The notes under the pieces: model-generated
What the model saw: the letters and a program-made list of their open reading frames with translations, nothing else
What the model was told of the DNA's origin: nothing
Database searches by the model: none
Program-made: the position numbers and the translations under genes
Source of the DNA: Shigella phage JK23
DNA length: 64,000 nucleotides
Direction: 5' to 3' (one strand)
Sequence record: MK962752
Shown here: one piece after another, positions 24,512 through 35,485 of the stretch
How the letters are laid out: every line of letters starts with the position of its first letter
Numbering within the stretch: the first letter of the stretch is position 1

Positions 24512-24565
24512 TCCTCATGTTATGTCAGTAAGACTACTATAACACAACACGAGGGACTTGTAAAC
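24512..24565 (-). repeat. 54-bp exact repeat, copy 1 (early promoter plus leader)
   Basis: Identical to 40482-40535. Confidence 0.9.
24536..24565 (-). promoter_or_regulatory. early promoter (-35 GTTTAC, -10 TATAGT)
   Basis: On - strand GTTTAC, 18-bp spacer, TATAGT, then GAGGA RBS; inside 54-bp repeat. Confidence 0.55.
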
Positions 24566-26622
24566 TACATTTTGAACTTTTTAGACATTCCGTTGATGTT
24601 AACCAAAGAAGCTAATATTTGAGAAACTTCGTTTTCCTCTTCTTTTGATTCTTCTACAAGGAATTGATTAAATCCAGCCATTGGACGAACTTCACCAGTT
24701 TCCATTAAATGGTCGCCATCATATACTGATTCTTCTAATTGGTCAGAAGGAGGAACGATTGTACCTTCGATTAGATACTTGTTATAAGCAGTTTCTTTCA
24801 TAAAGTACGTACTTACTTTATTAATCTTTAGTAAAATTCCGCGCGGTAGAATAACTTCAGCTTCTGATGGAAATCCTGATAAATGACCCGGAACGATAAC
24901 TTTGATTCGCTCAGCTCCTTTAATTACCATACCCACGCTAGTTTCAGCATCTTCATTAGCATATGTAGAATGACTACCCATATGCATCAAATCTTCTGCA
25001 TCAACAGAACCTTCTCCTTCGCCAGAAAATACTGCACCGGAATCATCTAGAGCCATATAGTTTTTACCATGCTCACCGAAGATATTTGGTTTAAGCGATG
25101 TCGATACGAAGTTCTTGAAATAGAACATTTTGTTTTCAATGTTATGACGCAAAGTTTTAAAGGTAACTTCTTGTCCACGATAAAGCGTAGTTCCTGGAGG
25201 AAGAACTGAACCTTTAGCGAATGCAGAATCCAACGTCTCAATGTGCTTAATAGCTCGTTCCATATATTCTTCACGGGTAGAATCTGGTTTACCCAAAAGG
25301 AACGAGTTCATTTCAACATATGAATCTGCACAATAATCTTCAATTACATCAGACTCAGCCTGAGTCAGTCCTTTTGGAGTTACTTCAGTGCTTGCGTATT
25401 CATATGCCTGAGCAGCAGATTCATTAATCAATTTATAAATGCCATTCATGACAAATTGAATAATAGCTGTCTTTTCATCTGGCGTAGCTTTAGAACCTTT
25501 AACCAAATCATTGATAATTTTCTTAATAACATCAAAGCTATTAGAAATATTAATATCAGCAAGATCGCTTAAAATTTTATCAGTTTTATAATCAAAGAAT
25601 TCTTTATTCTTTAAATATTCTTGAGAACCTTGATATGTTATATCGCTCTGCAACTTGATAGATGGATCACGTAAACGTGCATGGGCCAATGCAATATGAT
25701 TTCGGAAGTTTTCTAGTTCATAATCGCTAGATTTAAAACGAGAAGCACTTCTCATACCACCGATAGCTCCTTTGCCGAAGTTTGAACCAATCTGGATAAC
25801 GCCAGAGTTCATCGGACCTTCTGCTTTATATACCGGAACTTTAGATTCAAACTCTTGATATTTCTTGGCAGCGAAGCCATCACCCTGAAGTGAAGCATCG
25901 ACAGTAGAATATTGAGCTTGTGCTGCTAATCGACGACTAATTTTAGTTTTTTGAATAACAGCTTGATCCGTGCGCTTATCATTTTCTAAAGCAATAGAAG
26001 CAGCAACAGCGACAGCTTTAGGAACAGCATTACCTGTTTTAACATCTACATAAACATCACCGACCTTTGATTCAACTTTTGTGAATAACTCGGTTGAAAT
26101 AGGAGGTACACCTGGAATGTCTTCTAAATTGGCATTTTTACGGTAAACCATAATATATGCGTACTTTTTATCATAGTCCCAGATTTCCTTTAAAAGAACA
26201 TATCGACCTGCTCCTTTAGTACGTACTAAACGGTCAGCAATAACTTGCATTTGACGAGCTGCGCCATTTGTTTTACTTTTTAGTACGCGGAATAGACATG
26301 CGTCGATTTTATACTGTTTCATTGTTTGAAGAGCAGTATCAAAAACGGCATTAATGACACCAATTGGATTTCCACCCAAGTTTTTAAGCTTAACTAATGA
26401 TAGTTTCTCATTAACACCTATCATTACGATATGCATCATTTTATCGCCTGGTTTAACGTTTTTATTCGTATCACCACCAGAGGTGTATGTACAAAATCTA
26501 AATCCAGGAAGCACGCTTTCTTCGCCGGCTTGAATAGCAAAAATTTGTGGTATTTTATGCTTAGGATTTAAGTTAACAACCGGCGCCGAAGCGCCGTCAA
26601 ATAATTCTGTAATAAGTTCCAT
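24565..26622 (-). CDS. alt: Alt-like ADP-ribosyltransferase, paralogue 1
   Basis: 685-aa ORF; N-terminal MELITELFD (prohead-protease LxE site); C-terminal R-S-E ART motifs YRGQ / STSL / EAEVILPRG. Confidence 0.85.
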   Translation of the reverse strand: MELITELFDGASAPVVNLNPKHKIPQIFAIQAGEESVLPGFRFCTYTSGGDTNKNVKPGDKMMHIVMIGVNEKLSLVKLKNLGGNPIGVINAVFDTALQTMKQYKIDACLFRVLKSKTNGAARQMQVIADRLVRTKGAGRYVLLKEIWDYDKKYAYIMVYRKNANLEDIPGVPPISTELFTKVESKVGDVYVDVKTGNAVPKAVAVAASIALENDKRTDQAVIQKTKISRRLAAQAQYSTVDASLQGDGFAAKKYQEFESKVPVYKAEGPMNSGVIQIGSNFGKGAIGGMRSASRFKSSDYELENFRNHIALAHARLRDPSIKLQSDITYQGSQEYLKNKEFFDYKTDKILSDLADINISNSFDVIKKIINDLVKGSKATPDEKTAIIQFVMNGIYKLINESAAQAYEYASTEVTPKGLTQAESDVIEDYCADSYVEMNSFLLGKPDSTREEYMERAIKHIETLDSAFAKGSVLPPGTTLYRGQEVTFKTLRHNIENKMFYFKNFVSTSLKPNIFGEHGKNYMALDDSGAVFSGEGEGSVDAEDLMHMGSHSTYANEDAETSVGMVIKGAERIKVIVPGHLSGFPSEAEVILPRGILLKINKVSTYFMKETAYNKYLIEGTIVPPSDQLEESVYDGDHLMETGEVRPMAGFNQFLVEESKEEENEVSQILASLVNINGMSKKFKM

Positions 26623-26625
26623 GAT

Positions 26626-28722
26626 TTATCCTTGAACGAACTTGTAAGGCATGTTTGTAATATCTATGCAAGACGCAATAATTCCAAGAGATGATTCTAC
26701 TTTCTGTTTAACATTTGATGAAACAAATGATGCAAAGTCAACTCTGTCTTCTACTTCAATATCACCTGTCATTGCAACTACTTCGCCGGTTTCCATTAGA
26801 TGGTCACCGTCATAAATTACCGATTCGGTGAGTTCTTCTGTGGTCATAACTTCAGCTTGAATAAGTTTTGTATTATTAGATGTTGTTCCGTCATTATTAG
26901 AAGCATCAGTTATTTTATTAACTTTAACCATCAATCCGCGCGGTAGAATAACTTCAGCTTCTGTTGCTATTCCGAGACTTCCTGGATATACAACATTAAC
27001 TTTATGAGCTCCATCAATTGCCCATCCTATTTGAACTTTAACGTATTCAGGATTTTCTTTATACGCTCTTATTTCGTTTGGATTAATAGTTATTCCTTCT
27101 TCATTTTTATCAACTGTTAATTCATTGCGAGCTTCTGGTTCTAAAAGACCAATACCAGCATGTGTAATTCCAAAACGTCCAAAAATGATAGGAGTTAAAG
27201 AAGTAGATACAAAATTTCTGAAATAGAACACTTTATTTTTAACTAGTGCTTCGTATATAGGAGCAGTCATACTTTGAGCACGATAAACTGTAATGCCTTC
27301 TGGTATACGGTCACCATTTTCAAAAGCTGAATCTAAATTATTTATAGCAGATTCAATTTCTTTTTCACTCATTATATCATATCGTTCTGGATTGTAACGA
27401 CCTAAAAGAAGATTATTGATGTCTGTATATCCTGAACCACAATACTCTCTAATGCCGCGCTTTTGTGATGGAGTATATTTAGAACCATCACGGGCAATAG
27501 TAATATCAATCATTGGACCTGCACCAATTCCGGAAAAGCTATAAATCATTCGTTTGAGGAATTTAGTTTTTGCTGCATTCCAGGCATTTTTAGTTATTTC
27601 TCCCCAGACTTCATCTGGCTGCCCTTTACGAGTTTTATTATGTTTATCAAGCCAATTATCTTTATATTCTTCAAATAATTGATTAACAGCTGCTGCGTAT
27701 TTCTCTAAACATTTTATTGAAGTAGTTGGTTCATTTTTAATCGCATTAAGAATTACATCTTTAATTTTTTCTGAAACTTCACCGACTTGACTCATTGGAA
27801 AGAATTTATAATCATAGTGAAGTTCATCTGCCGTTCCTTCAGCAATAATTTTTGCTGCCTTAGTTTTAGAAGCTAATGAATTAATTCCAAGCTTCATTTC
27901 TTCTGCTTCGGGAATTAAAGGTGCAGTAGCAGGTTTATTGAAATTAGCTGCGGTAGATTCATACTTCTGGAATAATTCACTTTCAAATCTAGAAGATTCC
28001 AATGACTGACTTTGTGCAATTGCTCTACGGGAAATTTTAACTTTAACGATTACGGCTTGGTCAGAACGTTTATCGTTTTCTTGTGCAATAGATGCAGCAA
28101 TTGCCTCATTTTTGGTTACTTGAGCTCCAGTATCTTTATTAATATAAACATCACCGACCTTCGATTCAACTTTAGTAAAGAGCTCGGTACTAATTTCCGG
28201 AACTCCTGGAATGTCTTCTAGTGATACATTTTTGCGATGTATAAGAATATATGCATACTTTTTATCATAATCCCAGAGTTCCTTAAGAAGGACGTATCTG
28301 CCACCTGAACGACTACGGATAAGTCTATCAGCAATAACTTGAATTTGTCGAGCTTGGCCAGCAGTTTTAGACTTAAGAATACGAAGCATACAAGCATCAA
28401 TTTTATACTGACGCATTGTTTGCATTGCAACAGTAAAAACTGAATTGATATAATTAATTGGGCTTGGACCAAGACCTTTTAATTTAGCAATTGAACCTTT
28501 AGCAGTTAATGTAAAAGGAACAATATGCATCATTTTATCGCCCATTTTTAAATCACGATTAGTATCACCTCCAGATGTATAGGTACATAAACGAAAGCCT
28601 GGTTGTTCAATTGCATCATCAACATGAACTGAAAAAATTTGTGGTATTTTCTTCTTTGGATTTAAGTTTGTAATCGGAAGAGTAGTATCTTCGTCAAATA
28701 ATTCTGTAATGAGTTCCATCAT
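26626..28722 (-). CDS. alt: Alt-like ADP-ribosyltransferase, paralogue 2
   Basis: 698-aa ORF; same N-terminal MELITELFD and C-terminal YRAQ / STSL / EAEVILPRG motifs, divergent central region; late promoter upstream. Confidence 0.85.
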   Translation of the reverse strand: MMELITELFDEDTTLPITNLNPKKKIPQIFSVHVDDAIEQPGFRLCTYTSGGDTNRDLKMGDKMMHIVPFTLTAKGSIAKLKGLGPSPINYINSVFTVAMQTMRQYKIDACMLRILKSKTAGQARQIQVIADRLIRSRSGGRYVLLKELWDYDKKYAYILIHRKNVSLEDIPGVPEISTELFTKVESKVGDVYINKDTGAQVTKNEAIAASIAQENDKRSDQAVIVKVKISRRAIAQSQSLESSRFESELFQKYESTAANFNKPATAPLIPEAEEMKLGINSLASKTKAAKIIAEGTADELHYDYKFFPMSQVGEVSEKIKDVILNAIKNEPTTSIKCLEKYAAAVNQLFEEYKDNWLDKHNKTRKGQPDEVWGEITKNAWNAAKTKFLKRMIYSFSGIGAGPMIDITIARDGSKYTPSQKRGIREYCGSGYTDINNLLLGRYNPERYDIMSEKEIESAINNLDSAFENGDRIPEGITVYRAQSMTAPIYEALVKNKVFYFRNFVSTSLTPIIFGRFGITHAGIGLLEPEARNELTVDKNEEGITINPNEIRAYKENPEYVKVQIGWAIDGAHKVNVVYPGSLGIATEAEVILPRGLMVKVNKITDASNNDGTTSNNTKLIQAEVMTTEELTESVIYDGDHLMETGEVVAMTGDIEVEDRVDFASFVSSNVKQKVESSLGIIASCIDITNMPYKFVQG

Positions 28723-28742
28723 ATCCTCTCTAGTGTTTATTC

Positions 28743-28750
28743 TATTTATA
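28743..28750 (-). promoter_or_regulatory. late promoter TATAAATA on - strand (alt paralogue 2)
   Basis: Plus-strand TATTTATA between a hairpin and the alt RBS (GAGAGG). Confidence 0.6.
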
Positions 28751-28755
28751 AAATT

Positions 28756-28773
28756 AAAGGCCCGAAGGCCTTT
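28756..28773 (-). terminator. hairpin upstream of alt late promoter
   Basis: AAAGGCC-CGAA-GGCCTTT. Confidence 0.55.
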
Positions 28774-28960
28774 AATAATCTATTGGTAAGAGAGTACGAT
28801 ATATTTCAAACTTTGGACCTTTTTCATAGGCATCAAAAGTTTCTGTGAATTTATTATAAGCATATGCATCTATAAATTCAATCATGATTTGTGATACAGA
28901 AGTAGAAACATCTCCACCTTCTTTTTGAGCCACGACAATTGTTTCTAAGTAAGCTTTCAT
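28772..28960 (-). CDS. hypothetical small protein
   Basis: 62-aa ORF, ATG start overlapping 3' end of gene 30. Confidence 0.45.
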   Translation of the reverse strand: MKAYLETIVVAQKEGGDVSTSVSQIMIEFIDAYAYNKFTETFDAYEKGPKFEIYRTLLPIDY

Positions 28961-30420
28961 AAACCAGTTACCTCATGAAAATCACCAAATACATCTTCGA
29001 ATGTATTAGCTTTAGTTTTATCTTCACGTAAACGAATCGCAATCGGAAGAAATAATTTAACGTAATCAGTGCGGCCATCAGATTTTAACCAACCGTTGCA
29101 TTCGCACTCTAGAATTTTTCCAATATAATAATTTTGGTTTTCCATAATGCGAGTACGGTCAAGTTCATGCGATTTTACACCGGCTTTATCTTTTAAGCCT
29201 GAACCAGCATTTACTTTAATTTTTCCACACTCTGATTCAAGAATAAATCCACCCGCTTTAGTAGGGTCTTTACGGTGAGGATAAATTCCTACAATTTTTA
29301 AATCAACATCAATTACTTCTTTAAATTTATAGAGATTTTTTGAACGAGCATTTTCCCATAATCCATCGATATTTTTGAGAATAATACCTTCAAGACCTTG
29401 GTCAATATATTTTTTATAAATTACCTTAGCTTCATTTAGGTTATTTACTACCTGGTTTTCAATTAAAATTACTTTATCATAGCCTGATGTCATTTGTTCT
29501 AGTTTAGAAAAACGTACATCATACTTTAAACGAAATGCAGGAAGACCATATATTTCTACTAATGGAACATAGTCCCAGACCTGAAACTTCATGCATTGAG
29601 CTTCTTTTTCGGAAATGGTTCCCTTTAAAGATTTATTAGCGATTCCATTAGAAGCAGTACGTGATTCAGCTACTTCGGCGAATTCTTTAGCTTTACTAAT
29701 TTCAGGATAAGCATCAAAAAGAAAATCTAGGCCTTCTGGTTCCTTTTCAACTTGCTCATGGTATACCAATTCGCCATCAATTAACACACCTTCTGGATGA
29801 ATCTGGCGGGCTTCAGCGGTCATTTTGATTAACTCTTCCTTAAGAAGGTCTAATCCTAGATATTCATTACCAGCTCGTGATAAAAGACGAACATCATCTA
29901 ATTCATCACCTCTAACTTCAGCAAAACACCGAGCTCCATCAGCTTTTAACTGGGCAAAGGCTGGAAATTTGATATTCTTATTAATGCCTTTTTCATCATA
30001 AGAACTTGCCAGCATTTGAGGTTGTTCAGGAATTAAACCTGGCCAAACTTTGTTTGCAATAGATACTGAAGCACCACATTCAAGGTCTCGCATCATCACT
30101 CGACGCAAAACTTCAACATCATCTTTTTTACCATCGGTGATGTATCCAGTTAATTCCTCAATTGCCGCATTTCCAGTCAATTTCCGAGTAGCTAACGTGA
30201 ATTCAATGAAGTCAAGCATATCGGTAAGAGTCAACATTCCAAAACTCTGGGTAGCAATACCAGGTTTAGGCCATTTCTTGATATAATACTGTAACCCACG
30301 AGAATAAGTCAGACGATATACTCGTTTAAGCAATTCATTATCTTTATTCTTTTCAAGAATTGCTTGCTTCTGTTTAGTTGAACCAATAGATGCTATTTCG
30401 TTCAGAATTTTAAGAATCAT
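28957..30420 (-). CDS. 30: ATP-dependent DNA ligase gp30
   Basis: 487-aa ORF (T4 DNA ligase length); adenylation motif KADGAR. Confidence 0.93.
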   Translation of the reverse strand: MILKILNEIASIGSTKQKQAILEKNKDNELLKRVYRLTYSRGLQYYIKKWPKPGIATQSFGMLTLTDMLDFIEFTLATRKLTGNAAIEELTGYITDGKKDDVEVLRRVMMRDLECGASVSIANKVWPGLIPEQPQMLASSYDEKGINKNIKFPAFAQLKADGARCFAEVRGDELDDVRLLSRAGNEYLGLDLLKEELIKMTAEARQIHPEGVLIDGELVYHEQVEKEPEGLDFLFDAYPEISKAKEFAEVAESRTASNGIANKSLKGTISEKEAQCMKFQVWDYVPLVEIYGLPAFRLKYDVRFSKLEQMTSGYDKVILIENQVVNNLNEAKVIYKKYIDQGLEGIILKNIDGLWENARSKNLYKFKEVIDVDLKIVGIYPHRKDPTKAGGFILESECGKIKVNAGSGLKDKAGVKSHELDRTRIMENQNYYIGKILECECNGWLKSDGRTDYVKLFLPIAIRLREDKTKANTFEDVFGDFHEVTGL

Positions 30421-30686
30421 TGTTCATCCTTTAGAGTTTGGTTTACAGCTCTATTATAAATCAATTCATCATTAAGCTCAGTCAAAGACCTGTGGTACGT
30501 GGTTCTAACTTTATTTCCTTGCATCCAGTGCTTGACGTAAATGAAACCTTGCTCTACACATTTTTTAAAAATTCGTTCGTCTTTTTGAGCTCGGAATTCT
30601 GGATTGCATCTAAAAAATTGATTTACGTGACCGTAATCACGTGTAGTATTACCTTCATTTTCATAAATAGTGTGAACAACAAACAT
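30417..30686 (-). CDS. 30.1: hypothetical protein 30.1
   Basis: 89-aa ORF; first of nine small ORFs between 30 and rIII, as in T4. Confidence 0.6.
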   Translation of the reverse strand: MFVVHTIYENEGNTTRDYGHVNQFFRCNPEFRAQKDERIFKKCVEQGFIYVKHWMQGNKVRTTYHRSLTELNDELIYNRAVNQTLKDEQ

Positions 30687-31525
30687 TAGAATGCTCCTTG
30701 GAAAATATTATCACCACTAGTAGGTCTATTATACAAATACTCTATGCCACCAGGTTTAATATAGTTCCATGTCTGAAACGGATGTGTCTGATATGGATGA
30801 TATAGATGATTATAAGGATTAAATCCAGGAGTTCTCCAGGTAGTGTTCCAAGGAAAAGAATCGTTTTTGATCATCTTCTCGATTGCATCTTTTATAGCTT
30901 TTTCACTATCAAAGCTTTCTTTATTTTCCTTTGGTGAAAAAAGCTTATTCTCTACATCGTTCCATGTATAAACTCGCTGAGCAGTTTTTGGAATATTGTC
31001 ACGCTCTCCTCGAGCCATCCAATAAACAGGAACATTTAATATTTCACTCGCGTGATCGCAGTGGTGAGCGAGATCGTCAATATAACAAATTACGTTATAT
31101 TTCTCTTTTGCCTTTTTGAACAACTCTTCTTTTGAAGAATCATGACCACACATCAATACTTCTGAGAAGGCACCAGGAAAAAGAGCATTCAAATTAAATT
31201 GACGATTCAGCAGAGCGTCAATAGAATCACCCAATGCTGTAACAGCTACAAAATTATAATCTTCTTTTAATTTGTTAATTACACACAGGGCATCTTTATA
31301 TGGAGACAAGTAACGAATAAAATCTGAACGATTGTATTTTTCAATTAACTTGACGCCAAGTTCTTCATCACAATTAAAGAGTTTACCAGGAGAAATAAAT
31401 TTCTCATCTTGGATCATTTTTAAAATATGTTCTAACGGAAGATTATATTTCTGAGCAAAATAAGGAAGGCCTGATTGCCAGCTTAAACATACTCCATCAA
31501 TATCAGTTAAAATAGTAGGCTTCAT
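30686..31525 (-). CDS. 30.2: HAD-superfamily hydrolase-like protein 30.2
   Basis: 279-aa ORF with N-terminal motif ILTDIDGV (HAD motif I). Confidence 0.65.
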   Translation of the reverse strand: MKPTILTDIDGVCLSWQSGLPYFAQKYNLPLEHILKMIQDEKFISPGKLFNCDEELGVKLIEKYNRSDFIRYLSPYKDALCVINKLKEDYNFVAVTALGDSIDALLNRQFNLNALFPGAFSEVLMCGHDSSKEELFKKAKEKYNVICYIDDLAHHCDHASEILNVPVYWMARGERDNIPKTAQRVYTWNDVENKLFSPKENKESFDSEKAIKDAIEKMIKNDSFPWNTTWRTPGFNPYNHLYHPYQTHPFQTWNYIKPGGIEYLYNRPTSGDNIFQGAF

Positions 31526-31980
31526 AGAGAGTCTCTTAATAGGTTTAACACATCAATAAATTCAGCTTCGGTTAATATTGTATCATCTTTTGTTAGACCA
31601 CTAGCCATGCTGTGCTTCAAAACTTTTCCTTTCGAGGCGTGTAATGCATCACGAAAGCCCTTGTTTTGGATCGCTGCTTCAAAATATGCATTTGTGTATA
31701 ATTCTTTCCATGCTGGGGAGTATCTTGAAAACGGAACTCCAAGCCAGAAGAGGGTCCCACGGTCCTGAGCTCTAGCATAAGACCTTCCAGCTTGTTGGGC
31801 GGCAAGCCCGGATAACCCAAATATACGACGTTGTTGTTCAGCATTTTTCACCTTGCATCCTTGGAGGAATCCTTCAAGACCTCCGAATTGAATACCATCC
31901 ATGACGAAAGGCCATTGGGCGAAATTACTTAATGCACACGATGGCCATCTAAAATTGCTTCTAATCTCTAACTCAGACAT
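31522..31980 (-). CDS. 30.3: NADAR (YbiA/DUF1768)-like protein 30.3
   Basis: Track start is TTG; ATG 31980 gives 152 aa; motif ALSNFAQWPFVMDGIQFGGLEGFLQGCK resembles the NADAR core. Confidence 0.65.
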   Translation of the reverse strand: MSELEIRSNFRWPSCALSNFAQWPFVMDGIQFGGLEGFLQGCKVKNAEQQRRIFGLSGLAAQQAGRSYARAQDRGTLFWLGVPFSRYSPAWKELYTNAYFEAAIQNKGFRDALHASKGKVLKHSMASGLTKDDTILTEAEFIDVLNLLRDSL

Positions 31981-32179
31981 TTTCAATACTTATAATTTCA
32001 ACATCAGCCCAATGACCATAGCAAGGAAGACGAAATTCAACTGGCCAGTTAGGGTCCTTTTCTAATATAATAGACTTAACTTGTGGTTCTTCATGTTCAT
32101 CAGTATATGGATTTTTATCTGTTACTTTATATGTGACCTTAATGTACTGAATTCCAAAAATCTTATTAATTATATTCAT
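31973..32179 (-). CDS. 30.4: hypothetical protein 30.4
   Basis: 68-aa ORF, ATG start. Confidence 0.55.
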   Translation of the reverse strand: MNIINKIFGIQYIKVTYKVTDKNPYTDEHEEPQVKSIILEKDPNWPVEFRLPCYGHWADVEIISIENV

Positions 32180-32373
32180 ACTAATTCCTTTAATCCGTAG
32201 ATAGGAGATAATTCATCGCCCATACGAAGGTCTTCATTTCCATCTACCCAAGAAACAATATAAGCCTCTTTTATTTGAATACCACTCCATTTAAACGGAG
32301 GTAGAACCTTAAAAATTAATCCAGGTATACCAACTCCCTTTAATTCAACAGTTTGACCTAAAAAAAATTTCAT
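32176..32373 (-). CDS. 30.5: hypothetical protein 30.5
   Basis: 65-aa ORF, ATG start. Confidence 0.55.
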   Translation of the reverse strand: MKFFLGQTVELKGVGIPGLIFKVLPPFKWSGIQIKEAYIVSWVDGNEDLRMGDELSPIYGLKELV

Positions 32374-32660
32374 TAAAACCTCATCTGAAAACCGTGCGAT
32401 TTAACATTACCGCCATTAATATCAGAACTATTAATTTCACGTGCAATTGAGGGATCAATGTCAATTTCGCGATTGAGTTTAGTGATAGCTAAAGTATCGC
32501 GCCCATTTACAGTACGGAACTCTAAAGGGCAGACTACATTAACGTAGTTTTTAATCGATTCACTGGTAGGTTGCAAATGTGCAGGAAGGTCTTTAGGCGC
32601 CTTTGAGAAAACTACTTCGCAGAAGTTTTTACGGGTATCAAAATAAGTAGTCATAAACAT
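32373..32660 (-). CDS. 30.6: hypothetical protein 30.6
   Basis: Track start 32711 is TTG and would include a terminator hairpin; ATG 32660 with AGGA RBS gives 95 aa. Confidence 0.55.
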   Translation of the reverse strand: MFMTTYFDTRKNFCEVVFSKAPKDLPAHLQPTSESIKNYVNVVCPLEFRTVNGRDTLAITKLNREIDIDPSIAREINSSDINGGNVKSHGFQMRF

Positions 32661-32677
32661 AACATTTTCCTCAGTAA

Positions 32678-32691
32678 GGGGCCAAAGCCCC
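32678..32691 (-). terminator. hairpin between 30.7 and 30.6
   Basis: GGGGC-CAAA-GCCCC. Confidence 0.5.
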
Positions 32692-32700
32692 TCATTTATT

Positions 32701-33066
32701 TTAAATATCAAATTCGTTAAGAACTACATCAAAGATTGCTTCAAGATGCTCAGGTTTAGCTCTGTTACTCAGAATATGACGAATCCAAGTTTTAACCAAA
32801 AGCTTGCGATTAACGCCATTCCAGCAAGGATGAGTCCCTAAATCGCGTTCACGGAAATCATCATCCAGAGCGATTTTAAAGTTGGAACCTTCCATCGTGA
32901 TTGAAACCGTGATACCGTTTTCAAATCGCATATAAACGTAATTAGGAGTCATATACTGCTCAATTTCGCATACTGATCCATTTTGATGTTTCCAAAGGCA
33001 AATAGTATCAATAGAACCTGCAATACCATTAGAAACATATTTACGTTCAAAGTTGATGTAGTTCAT
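32701..33066 (-). CDS. 30.7: hypothetical protein 30.7
   Basis: Track start is TTG; ATG 33066 after GGAG RBS gives 121 aa; early promoter upstream. Confidence 0.6.
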   Translation of the reverse strand: MNYINFERKYVSNGIAGSIDTICLWKHQNGSVCEIEQYMTPNYVYMRFENGITVSITMEGSNFKIALDDDFRERDLGTHPCWNGVNRKLLVKTWIRHILSNRAKPEHLEAIFDVVLNEFDI

Positions 33067-33102
33067 TTTATTCTCCAAGATGTTTAATTGCGGTACAGGT
33101 AT

Positions 33103-33131
33103 ATAATATCATATCCTGTACCAAAGTAAAC
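33103..33131 (-). promoter_or_regulatory. early promoter upstream of 30.7 (GTTTAC, 17 bp, TATTAT)
   Basis: Read on - strand; -10 lies in the loop of an 8-bp palindrome. Confidence 0.55.
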
Positions 33132-33133
33132 AA

Positions 33134-33466
33134 TTATTTTACTACTTTCCAATGCTGCATGTCAAGTTTACCAACTTTTTTCATCTTCTCAATTAAGCGT
33201 TCGGCACGTTGGCGAGCTGTAACATAATACCATTCACCTAATTCATTTTGTTCAATTTTTCCAACGATTACTGTATTCAATTCATAAATCCAACCAGTAA
33301 AGAAATTATGAACTTGAATTGTAAAGGTGAAATCTGTTCCCATACCTTCTGTTGTTTCTACTTCAATAATATCACCTTCAACTGCCATTAAGAACCACAT
33401 AGTTTCATCATATTTACCATTGAAGCATTTAGTTTTAACTGCAGCGTTCAGATTAATCGTTTTCAT
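33134..33466 (-). CDS. 30.8: hypothetical protein 30.8
   Basis: 110-aa ORF, ATG start. Confidence 0.6.
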   Translation of the reverse strand: MKTINLNAAVKTKCFNGKYDETMWFLMAVEGDIIEVETTEGMGTDFTFTIQVHNFFTGWIYELNTVIVGKIEQNELGEWYYVTARQRAERLIEKMKKVGKLDMQHWKVVK

Positions 33467-33552
33467 TTTATTCTCCTTTGTTTGTGTAAGATAATACTAT
33501 CACAAAGGAACCATACTGTAAACAACTTTATGCAATCTTTGGAAAATAAAAA

Positions 33553-33572
33553 AGGACTCCCGAAGGAGTCCT
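33553..33572 (-). terminator. hairpin after 30.9
   Basis: AGGACTCC-CGAA-GGAGTCCT. Confidence 0.6.
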
Positions 33573-33576
33573 CAAC

Positions 33577-33753
33577 TTATGCTTTCTGCTTACCAAAACG
33601 AGAAGCATCATCTCGAAGAACCGCACGTGCTCGGCGCATGATCTTCTCAACAGTTTGATTGATACGAGAGTTCGACCCACGCTTGTAGCCAGCGCGTTTA
33701 GAATCACCAACTTTCTTTTCAACTGCTTTCTTTGCTTTAGCTTGTTTTGCCAT
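33577..33753 (-). CDS. 30.9: hypothetical basic small protein 30.9
   Basis: ATG 33753 (MAKQAKAKKAVEKK...) gives 58 aa; track ORF extends further upstream. Confidence 0.55.
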   Translation of the reverse strand: MAKQAKAKKAVEKKVGDSKRAGYKRGSNSRINQTVEKIMRRARAVLRDDASRFGKQKA

Positions 33754-34151
33754 TATAAATTCTCTTTTAAATGAAAATGCAGGACTTATTGGCATTGCCT
33801 GCGCAAGCCCTCAAGGGGAACATAGGTTTTTTGATATTTAACGACCAGGATAACCATAAACCCGTCATCATACCTTATAGCTCTTATCTGTTGCACACCG
33901 TTAGCTTAAAGGTTCCGGGTTCGATTTCTCGAGGATAAGATATATACTGATGGATATATAGGCCTTGAGGCGTACTCCCGATTGGCCATCACCTCGGGGT
34001 AGCATGCACTTGCCGCTATAAGAATAACATTCAAGAGGTACACCGTAAAACTGCCGGGGTCTTAAAACTATAATGATTCGCAAATCATTAATCAGACAGT
34101 TCGACGGCTCCTCGTTTTAACTTCACACTAAGGCAGTGAATCTCCAATAAA

Positions 34152-34400
34152 TTACTTCAGTGTTACCACAAAGTGACGAACTGCTTTTCGTGCAGCAGAA
34201 GCCAGAGGCTTAGCATATTTAAGTTCATCTTTTTCCTGAAGCTCAGCAGCTAATGCAGTTTGAGCAGGATTCAGATGTTTGAAATAACGCAGGATTTCAA
34301 GAGCTTCGGCTTCAACATCAATAGATGCGCCATAGTTTTCGTGACCATTATTCCATGCGTTTCGTTGCAGTTCAAGAGCGTGTTGTAATTGTTTAATCAT
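34152..34400 (-). CDS. rIII: rIII lysis-inhibition accessory protein
   Basis: 82-aa ORF (T4 RIII is 82 aa), located between 30.9 and gene 31. Confidence 0.8.
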   Translation of the reverse strand: MIKQLQHALELQRNAWNNGHENYGASIDVEAEALEILRYFKHLNPAQTALAAELQEKDELKYAKPLASAARKAVRHFVVTLK

Positions 34401-34547
34401 TTAAAAATTCTCGTTAGAGATTAAAACTCGGTAGTCACGTTCTTCTGAATTTCATCTTCTTTCGACAGATCTCTCAGTTGTAGACTACCACATAGAATTG
34501 TTCGGTTAACTTATTATTCCGACACCAAATTCATATTATTATTTATA

Positions 34548-34883
34548 TCACTTATAAAGACACGGAATAGCTTTATAGTGACAGGTAACGAATTTTTGTT
34601 TAATTTCTTTTGGCTGCTTAAGACCCAGAGCTACAAAAGGGTGTGGAACGTTTCGAATTTGACCAACTGGAAGAGAAGTCAAATCACCAACTTCACAGAA
34701 ACCTTCAGGAACATCAGGACCGACAGAGTGAACTACACACAGTTCAGGAACTTCACCTTGAACACGTTTACCGATAATAAGTCCTGATTCTGTAACTTCT
34801 TCATCACCGGCTTGTGCAGGTTCAGAAACTAAAATAACATATTCACCGACAGCACGAATTGGTAGCTGTTGTACTTCAGACAT
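34548..34883 (-). CDS. 31: co-chaperonin gp31 (GroES analogue)
   Basis: 111-aa ORF matching T4 gp31 size and position; MotA-box middle promoter upstream. Confidence 0.88.
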
Positions 34884-34899
34884 CGTTTTTCCTTTTTGT

Positions 34900-34942
34900 T
34901 AACAGATGAATTAATAATAACAAATAATTCTTAAAGCATTTA
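34900..34942 (-). promoter_or_regulatory. candidate MotA-box middle promoter of gene 31
   Basis: On - strand: AAATGCTTTAA followed about 12 bp later by TA-rich -10-like hexamer. Confidence 0.4.
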
Positions 34943-35248
34943 TTTACCAATAAATTGGAGCAAATGCTCAACTTTCATACCATTAACGGAAATCAATTTG
35001 TCAATAGAAAAACCTCGCCATGCACCAAGTTCAACATCAAATACTGGAATCATATCAGTAGATTCTTTCCGAGTAGATTCAGTCAATTTACCAGTTTGCA
35101 TGGTTGGCATAAAGTCAGCATCGCGAGTACCTTTCATAACACGAATAGTACCATCAGACTTTTCAAAAACTACGTTTGAAACACCCATGGACAATTTAGT
35201 TTTCAAAATTTCACGAATTGCTACTTTTTGTTCAGTCGTCAGTTTCAT
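34940..35248 (-). CDS. 31.1: hypothetical protein 31.1
   Basis: 102-aa ORF, ATG start. Confidence 0.6.
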   Translation of the reverse strand: MKLTTEQKVAIREILKTKLSMGVSNVVFEKSDGTIRVMKGTRDADFMPTMQTGKLTESTRKESTDMIPVFDVELGAWRGFSIDKLISVNGMKVEHLLQFIGK

Positions 35249-35485
35249 TTATTTACCTATTACAGTTTTAATATGAGTTGTTCCACGTTCTTTAAGAGTG
35301 GAAAGTAATTTTTGGCATTTTTCTAAATCAGATTTCCAACTATGTGGTCTATCAATACAAACCCAGTTTGACTTATAATACTGCTTCCATTTAGAGAAAA
35401 AATACTTCTTATACTCTACAGCAAATGAAATGTTCTCGTTGGAATAAGAACTAATTGCTGTGAGCTGTACCAAACGAAATTTCAT
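35249..35485 (-). CDS. 31.2: hypothetical protein 31.2
   Basis: 78-aa ORF, ATG start. Confidence 0.55.
   Translation of the reverse strand: MKFRLVQLTAISSYSNENISFAVEYKKYFFSKWKQYYKSNWVCIDRPHSWKSDLEKCQKLLSTLKERGTTHIKTVIGK

What the first reader, a model, noticed from the sequence alone, without database searches (positions are those of the whole stretch)
31522..31980. NADAR-like gene (30.3) in the same early block as the Alt ADP-ribosyltransferases
The 152-aa product carries ALSNFAQWPFVMDGIQFGGLEGFLQGCK, which I recognise as the core of the NADAR/YbiA (DUF1768) fold. That family is linked to processing NAD-derived ADP-ribose adducts, including reversal of guanine ADP-ribosylation. It lies about 3 kb from the two alt genes, next to a HAD-type hydrolase (30.2, DxDGV motif) and DNA ligase. 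The arrangement hints at a phage toolkit for writing and erasing ADP-ribose marks, possibly countering host ADP-ribosylating defence toxins.
Basis: partly seen in the sequence, partly recalled or inferred. Interest (0 to 1): 0.45.

Follow-up and report, generated by a model that had tools for sequence, protein, structure and literature searches.

The report
T4 adfN: known anti-DarT NADAR hydrolase

Summary
The ORF is real: window 31522..31980, minus strand, 152 aa, carrying the quoted motif. The window is a Tequatrovirus, and the protein is 149/152 identical to T4 gp30.3.

NADAR membership still holds on other tests:
- 23 of 64 family members hit PF08719.
- The family profile aligns to E. coli YbiA (hhalign 93.9%, E 1.6e-7).
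- Catalytic E36 and K43 and the phage-subfamily H123 are present and conserved, and the C-terminal helix is intact.

Published work shows that T4 gp30.3 (AdfN) hydrolyses guanine-ADP-ribose on DNA and is required for growth on DarTG1 hosts.

The "writer/eraser toolkit with Alt" idea is not supported. No tested activity of T4 gp30.3 bears on Alt's protein marks. Linkage to alt, 30.2 and ligase is T4-clade synteny and is absent around about 60 more distant homologues.

Verdict: already known, low interest.

The parts
31522..31980 (-). adfN (gene 30.3): 152-aa phage-type NADAR, a DNA guanine-ADP-ribosyl glycohydrolase; stop codon at 31522-31524
31873..31875 (-). Codon GAA for E36, the catalytic glutamate (equivalent to PnNADAR E43, E. 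coli C7 NADAR E88, YbiA E48)
   Evidence: Read from the sequence. Invariant in 64 family members. Aligned to the YbiA glutamate. E36A impairs T4 AdfN (PMC11825919).
31852..31854 (-). Codon AAG for K43, the phosphate-coordinating lysine (PnNADAR K50, C7 NADAR K95)
   Evidence: Read from the sequence. Conserved in at least 90% of the family. K43A impairs T4 AdfN. The role of the lysine comes from PMC11543638.
31612..31614 (-). Codon CAC for H123, the last-strand histidine that replaces Glu/Asp and marks the phage (gp30.3) NADAR subfamily
   Evidence: Read from the sequence. Invariant in 64 members. The subfamily definition comes from PMC11125620 and PMC11543638. The strand at residues 120-122 of the model ends just before it.
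31525..31569 (-). C-terminal helix (about residues 138-152), intact here; the RB69 allele loses the last 15 residues and is inactive against DarTG1
   Evidence: Helix 138-151 in the model. Full-length alignment to T4. RB69 truncation and truncation-mutant data in PMC11825919.
31927..31935 (-). Codons for the S18-N19-F20 motif (within ALSNF), invariant and shared with YbiA (FSNF)
   Evidence: Invariant columns. Aligned to the YbiA SNF motif.
30686..31525 (-). Context only: gene 30.2, a HAD-fold hydrolase of unknown substrate with a disordered C-terminal tail. Its ATG overlaps the adfN stop (ATGA).
24565..28722 (-). Context only: two tandem alt ADP-ribosyltransferase paralogs (26626..28722 and 24565..26622)
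   Evidence: Pfam PF03496, E 1.5e-37 and 6.1e-20. 70% and 41% identity to T4 Alt.

Best explanation
The gene is adfN (T4 gene 30.3), an orphan, antitoxin-like enzyme of the phage branch of the NADAR superfamily. When a host DarT1 toxin ADP-ribosylates guanines in phage DNA and so blocks replication, AdfN cleaves the N-glycosidic bond between ADP-ribose and the base. E36 acts at the distal ribose, K43 holds the diphosphate, and H123 takes the place of the acidic residue used by other NADARs. Removing the adduct restores replicable DNA. What is shown here: the identity of the gene, the fold, the conserved catalytic residues and the intact C-terminus. What is shown in the literature for the 98%-identical T4 protein: the enzymatic activity and the anti-DarTG1 phenotype. 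What is inferred: that this allele, which differs at A47V, H114Q and M125I and at none of the catalytic positions, behaves the same way.
For: - Identity: the protein is 149/152 identical to T4 gp30.3, and the window is a Tequatrovirus.
- Family: PF08010, E 1.6e-69. 23 of 64 homologues also hit Pfam NADAR, best E 1.5e-7. The family profile against YbiA gives hhalign 93.9%, E 1.6e-7. The profile against PDB finds only YbiA, E 0.0099.
- Residues: E36 and H123 are invariant and K43 is conserved in at least 90% of members.
- Literature, PMC11825919: T4 and T2 deleted for adfN cannot plaque on DarTG1. Ectopic AdfN rescues RB69. Purified AdfN, but not E36A, removes ADP-ribose from DarT1-modified DNA.
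- Literature, PMC11125620: T4 gp30.3 hydrolyses guanosine-ADPr but not thymidine-ADPr.
- Literature, PMC12945103: it hydrolyses G-ADPr but not C-ADPr.
- Literature, HIDEN-SEQ preprint: transposon insertions in 30.3 are lost on DarTG1.
Against: - The window protein gives no direct Pfam NADAR (PF08719) hit at E<=1. Single-sequence phmmer to YbiA gives only E 1.3.
- No assay exists for this exact allele.
- T4 AdfN does not neutralise DarT1 in uninfected E. coli, and it rescues non-T-even phages only weakly. The simple 'free-standing hydrolase' picture is therefore incomplete: an unidentified T-even factor or context is needed.
Confidence: 0.93

Rival explanations
1. Eraser for the phage's own marks: gp30.3 reverses ADP-ribosylation (or RNAylation) written by Alt, ModA or ModB on host proteins. 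With the adjacent alt genes it would form a write/erase regulatory pair.
For: Both alt paralogs are real ARTs lying 2.8-7 kb away on the same strand. NADAR and ART genes are co-located among the early genes of several T4-like phages (PMC9503650).
Against: Every substrate on which T4 gp30.3 has been tested is a nucleic-acid base adduct. It cleaves G-ADPr and not T-ADPr or C-ADPr. In the papers I read I found no test of a NADAR on ADP-ribosylated protein. The adfN deletion phenotype is specific to DarTG1, and the gene is non-essential on K-12. Of 80 viral loci with a gp30.3 homologue, only 15 have alt within 10 kb, and all 15 are T4-like by synteny. In 9 T4-superfamily genomes the NADAR sits 54-69 kb from the 30.2/ligase block, with no alt within 10 kb.
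Confidence: 0.03
2. Small-molecule N-glycosidase: like E. coli YbiA acting on riboflavin intermediates, or acting on soluble ADP-ribose-derived signals or NAD+ breakdown products made by host immunity, rather than on DNA adducts.
Against: There is direct in vitro activity on ADP-ribosylated DNA and a DarTG1-specific genetic requirement. The phage subfamily replaces the YbiA-type glutamate with histidine. A second, small-molecule activity has not been excluded.
Confidence: 0.03
3. Its main target is ADP-ribosylated RNA (G-ADPr on tRNA or mRNA written by other defence ARTs), with DarT1-modified DNA as a secondary substrate.
For: [quoted passage not shown] Johannesman et al. raise possible roles against RNA-ADP-ribosylating defences.
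Against: No defence system that writes G-ADPr on RNA has been shown to restrict T4. The only demonstrated phenotype is on DarTG1, which modifies DNA.
Confidence: 0.01

Closest known systems
T4 AdfN (gp30.3, NP_049816), anti-DarT factor NADAR; Pfam PF08010 Phage_30_3
   Same: Same gene at the same locus: 152 aa, 149/152 identical, with E36, K43, H123 and the C-terminal helix all present, and the same neighbours (30.4 upstream, 30.2/30.1/ligase downstream).
   Different: Three substitutions (A47V, H114Q, M125I, written window residue, position, T4 residue), none at a conserved catalytic position. This phage has two full-length alt genes where T4 has one plus the relics alt.-1 and alt.-2.
DarG1, the NADAR antitoxin of the DarTG1 toxin-antitoxin system (e.g. 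Geobacter lovleyi NADAR, PDB 8bat; E. coli C7 NADAR)
   Different: It is an orphan with no adjacent DarT1 gene. It lacks the N-terminal extension of DarG1. It has His where DarG1 has Asp in the last strand. It cannot act as an antitoxin in uninfected cells.
E. coli YbiA (PDB 2b3w), a YbiA-type NADAR and riboflavin-intermediate N-glycosidase
   Different: 17-20% identity. YbiA has Glu where gp30.3 has His123. YbiA is a housekeeping, LexA-operon gene. YbiA also removes C-ADPr, which the T4 NADAR does not.
Phytophthora nicotianae NADAR bound to ADP-ribose (PDB 8bau)
   Different: Eukaryotic and 189 aa, with Glu125 at the position of H123.
AdfN-Bas32 and AdfN-Bas60 (NADARs of T5-like and Vequintavirinae phages); T4 AdfM (Tk.4 macrodomain)
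   Same: Phage-encoded orphan antitoxin-like hydrolases that reverse DarT-written DNA ADP-ribosylation.
   Different: The Bas32 and Bas60 proteins belong to other NADAR clades and work without a phage context. AdfM has a macrodomain fold and acts against the thymidine-modifying DarTG2.

Membership tests
   No PF08719 hit at E<=1 for the window protein. Only PF08010 matches. Pfam models the phage branch as a separate family.
NADAR superfamily | Remote sequence homology to bona fide NADARs | tested here: met
   23 of 64 gp30.3-family members hit PF08719, best E 1.5e-7. The family profile against E. coli YbiA gives hhalign probability 93.9%, E 1.6e-7 over 91 columns. The profile against PDB finds only YbiA, E 0.0099.
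NADAR superfamily | NADAR fold (helical core flanked by small beta-hairpins) | tested here: met
   [not shown]
NADAR superfamily | Catalytic Glu and phosphate-binding Lys in the E-x6-K segment (PnNADAR E43/K50; C7 NADAR E88/K95) | tested here: met
   E36 is invariant and K43 is conserved in at least 90% of 64 homologues. Both align to the YbiA Glu and Lys. Residue roles come from PMC11543638.
Phage NADAR / gp30.3 subfamily (PF08010; AdfN-T4 type) | Match to PF08010 above the gathering score | tested here: met
   232.5 bits against a cut-off of 36, covering model positions 1-138 of 138.
Phage NADAR / gp30.3 subfamily (PF08010; AdfN-T4 type) | Histidine in the last strand in place of the Glu (YbiA type) or Asp (DarG1 type) | tested here: met
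   H123 is invariant in 64 members. The strand at residues 120-122 of the model ends just before it. The definition comes from PMC11125620 and PMC11543638.
Phage NADAR / gp30.3 subfamily (PF08010; AdfN-T4 type) | Full-length C-terminal helix (lost in the inactive RB69 allele) | tested here: met
   152 aa with no frameshift, and helix 138-151 in the model. The requirement is shown in PMC11825919.
Phage NADAR / gp30.3 subfamily (PF08010; AdfN-T4 type) | Guanine-ADP-ribose glycohydrolase activity and protection from DarTG1 | not testable with these tools
   Shown experimentally for the 98%-identical T4 protein. Inferred for this allele.
DarG1 antitoxin (DarTG1 TA system) | Encoded next to a DarT1 toxin gene | tested here: not met
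   The neighbours are 30.4 and 30.2. No gene other than the two alt paralogs was identified as an ADP-ribosyltransferase among those annotated or scanned in this block. The published term is 'orphan antitoxin'.
DarG1 antitoxin (DarTG1 TA system) | N-terminal extension ahead of the NADAR core | tested here: not met
   The protein is the 152-aa core only, and the NADAR motif starts at residue 16. [quoted passage not shown]
HAD superfamily (for neighbour gp30.2) | HAD Rossmannoid fold with a cap, and motifs I-IV (DxD, T/S, K, DD) | tested here: met
   [not shown]
HAD superfamily (for neighbour gp30.2) | Match to a curated HAD sequence model | tested here: not met
   No Pfam hit at E<=1, no NCBIfam hit, and no significant PDB sequence or profile hit. 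The only signal is a weak PHROG polynucleotide-kinase hit, E 0.0028.

The most novel reading that the evidence does not exclude
T4-type AdfN is reported to need an unidentified T-even-specific factor for full activity (PMC11825919). The most novel reading my data leave open is that this factor is encoded beside it. The candidate is the translationally coupled HAD-fold protein gp30.2, whose ATG overlaps the adfN stop as ATGA. The two could form a two-enzyme DNA de-ADP-ribosylation and clean-up module, or gp30.2 could stabilise or localise AdfN. A related possibility is that one of the nearby Alt ARTs activates AdfN. For: the two genes are adjacent in 17 of 26 genomes that hold both. Against: they lie 54-69 kb apart in the other 9; many distant gp30.3 homologues have no 30.2 within 10 kb; and the T4 transposon screen text names only adfN as conditionally essential on DarTG1.
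Probability: 0.06. Interest if true: 0.5.

Novelty: already known. Interest (0 to 1): 0.1.

Why it matters
As a discovery it adds little. The gene's family assignment was published in 2012 and revisited in 2022-2024. Its in vitro activity was published in 2024, and its biological role as the anti-DarTG1 factor AdfN in 2025. Two practical points remain:
- Public annotation still calls this gene 'hypothetical protein' in the T4 RefSeq record and in the close relatives listed. The Pfam NADAR model misses it, so an annotation pipeline would not flag it.
- The allele here is full length with all catalytic residues. This phage is therefore predicted to resist DarTG1, which matters for host-range prediction of T4-like therapeutic phages.
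The open question is which T-even factor potentiates AdfN. This analysis does not answer it.

Tried and rejected
- Direct Pfam and NCBIfam scans for NADAR on the window protein found nothing. I rejected this as a refutation because the family-level, profile-profile and fold tests all link it to NADAR.
- I tested whether alt, 30.2 or ligase travel with gp30.3 homologues. tblastn of window proteins against 80 viral loci, Pfam-annotated contexts of two distant homologues and a genome-level comparison of 30.2 and 30.3 contigs show linkage only within T4-like synteny. I therefore rejected the functional-module reading. Both locus lists are capped at 80, so the absences are not exhaustive.
- The promoter and terminator scan of 28700-35300 gave counts no higher than shuffled sequence, so I draw no operon boundaries from it.
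- I checked whether the internal +1-frame ORF 30.3' is conserved. It is open in close relatives and broken in distant ones, which is not evidence of coding.

Full report
**Observation.** The minus strand carries an ORF at 31522..31980. It starts with ATG and encodes 152 aa; an in-frame TTG at 31986 would add two residues. Residues 16-43 are the quoted ALSNFAQWPFVMDGIQFGGLEGFLQGCK. The region is 99.5% identical to Escherichia phage vB_EcoM_G4498, and 493 phage records, mostly Escherichia and Shigella phages, cover at least 80% of the 2-kb query around the gene. Against the T4 reference record, the ORF is gene 30.3 and the protein is 149/152 identical (A47V, H114Q, M125I).
- 30.2 lies at 30686..31525. 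It begins MKPTILTDIDGV, and its ATG overlaps the 30.3 stop as ATGA.
- 30.1 lies at 30417..30686 and hits PF11243 (DUF3045).
- DNA ligase lies at 28957..30420 and hits PF01068.
- Two full-length alt paralogs lie at 26626..28722 and 24565..26622. Both hit PF03496.

Taken literally, that test is met. The protein hits only Pfam PF08010 (Phage_30_3, E 1.6e-69, full model length) and shows no PF08719 hit at E<=1. NCBIfam has nothing. phmmer against PDB finds only E. coli YbiA, at E 1.3.

The test is too strict, because Pfam models the phage branch separately. I collected 104 homologues and aligned 64 full-length ones (A1). Four further results establish membership:
- 23 of the 64 also hit PF08719, best E 1.5e-7.
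- The A1 profile finds YbiA as the only PDB sequence, at E 0.0099.
- hhalign of A1 against YbiA gives 93.9% probability and E 1.6e-7. It aligns the SNF motif, E36 with the YbiA glutamate, and K43 with the YbiA lysine.

The residues that define the active site are present. E36 is invariant and K43 is conserved in at least 90% of members. [quoted passage not shown] The C-terminal helix (138-151) is intact.

**What it does.** This has already been established by experiment for the T4 protein.
- Cihlova et al. 2024 (PMC11125620) showed that T4 gp30.3 hydrolyses guanosine-ADP-ribose on DNA but not thymidine-ADP-ribose.
- Johannesman et al. 2025 (PMC11825919) mapped DarTG1 resistance of T2 and T4 to gene 30.3 using RB69 chimeras and renamed the gene adfN.
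- The same paper showed that adfN deletion makes T4 and T2 unable to plaque on DarTG1 hosts, and that ectopic AdfN rescues RB69.
- It showed that E36A, K43A and an RB69-like C-terminal truncation impair the protein.
- It showed that purified AdfN, but not E36A, removes ADP-ribose from DarT1-modified DNA.
- A T4 transposon screen found insertions in 30.3 lost specifically on DarTG1.
- A 2026 paper found that the T4 NADAR removes G-ADPr but not C-ADPr.

With 98% identity and no change at any conserved position, the window gene is very likely a functional adfN. I infer that this phage resists DarTG1.

**The "toolkit" reading.** I tested whether the neighbourhood is a conserved functional module. 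Among 80 viral loci encoding gp30.3 homologues, with 10-kb flanks, alt is nearby in 15 and 30.2 and ligase in 20 each. All of these are T4-like genomes sharing the T4 gene order. The roughly 60 loci with 36-44% identical homologues have none of these genes nearby. In two such phages the gene stands alone among small unannotated genes, with a NUDIX gene or a PRPP-synthetase gene a few kb away. Among 26 contigs that hold both 30.2 and 30.3 homologues, 17 have them adjacent and 9 have them 54-69 kb apart. Both lists are capped at 80.

On chemistry, Alt writes on host proteins, whereas every tested activity of T4 gp30.3 is on guanine adducts in nucleic acid. The phage both writes and erases ADP-ribose, but on different targets and for different purposes. 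The proximity is best read as inherited synteny of early genes. That co-location had itself been noted in print (PMC9503650).

**What remains open.** T4 AdfN does not neutralise DarT1 in uninfected cells and rescues non-T-even phages only weakly. Its authors propose an unidentified T-even factor. The adjacent, translationally coupled gp30.2 is one possible candidate, but the co-occurrence data and the transposon-screen text do not favour it. I give this reading about 6%.

**Verdict.** Interest is low.

Noticed in passing
window 24565..28722 (-): There are two full-length tandem alt ADP-ribosyltransferase genes where T4 has one alt plus the relic fragments alt.-1 and alt.-2. The copy at 26626..28722 is mosaic relative to T4 Alt: about 250 N-terminal residues and about 100 C-terminal residues are nearly identical, while the middle and the ART domain have diverged (70% overall). 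The second copy is 41% identical to T4 Alt.
   Followed up: partly
[not shown]
   Followed up: partly
window 31617..31844 (-): A 75-codon ORF lies in the +1 frame inside 30.3 and is annotated in T4 as 30.3'. The frame stays open (76 codons) in 11 of 12 close T4-like loci but is broken in L012 and in more distant homologues. This is weak evidence at best that it codes for anything.
   Followed up: partly
window 31522..31525 and 31973..31980: Gene junctions overlap on both sides of 30.3. The 30.4 stop overlaps the 30.3 start by 8 nt, and the 30.3 stop overlaps the 30.2 start as ATGA. No obvious Shine-Dalgarno sequence precedes the 30.3 ATG. This is consistent with translational coupling along 30.4-30.3-30.2.
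   Followed up: no
loci L027, L028, L034, L055, L063, L065, L070, L074, L081: In nine T4-superfamily genomes the gp30.3 homologue (about 39-44% identical) sits 54-69 kb from the 30.2/ligase block. The NADAR gene has therefore moved, or was acquired separately, within the superfamily.
   Followed up: partly
literature (PMC11125620, methods): The 2024 in vitro study lists its T4 gp30.3 construct as 'residues 1-208', whereas T4 gene 30.3 encodes 152 aa in the RefSeq record and here. The reason for the discrepancy is not clear from the text.
   Followed up: no
window 33136..33165 (-): The best sigma-70-like match in the block is TTGACA-18-TAAAAT (11 of 12 positions). It lies at the 3' end of 30.8, upstream of 30.7, and could be an early promoter feeding the 30.7-30.1 run. 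The overall promoter-like count is no higher than in shuffled sequence.
   Followed up: no
L082-L084 (6476..7240) and L085-L087 (6506..7843): In two unrelated large-phage lineages, the distant gp30.3 homologue is followed immediately on the same strand by a conserved gene with no Pfam hit (254 aa in one lineage, 445 aa in the other). I did not examine these further.
   Followed up: no
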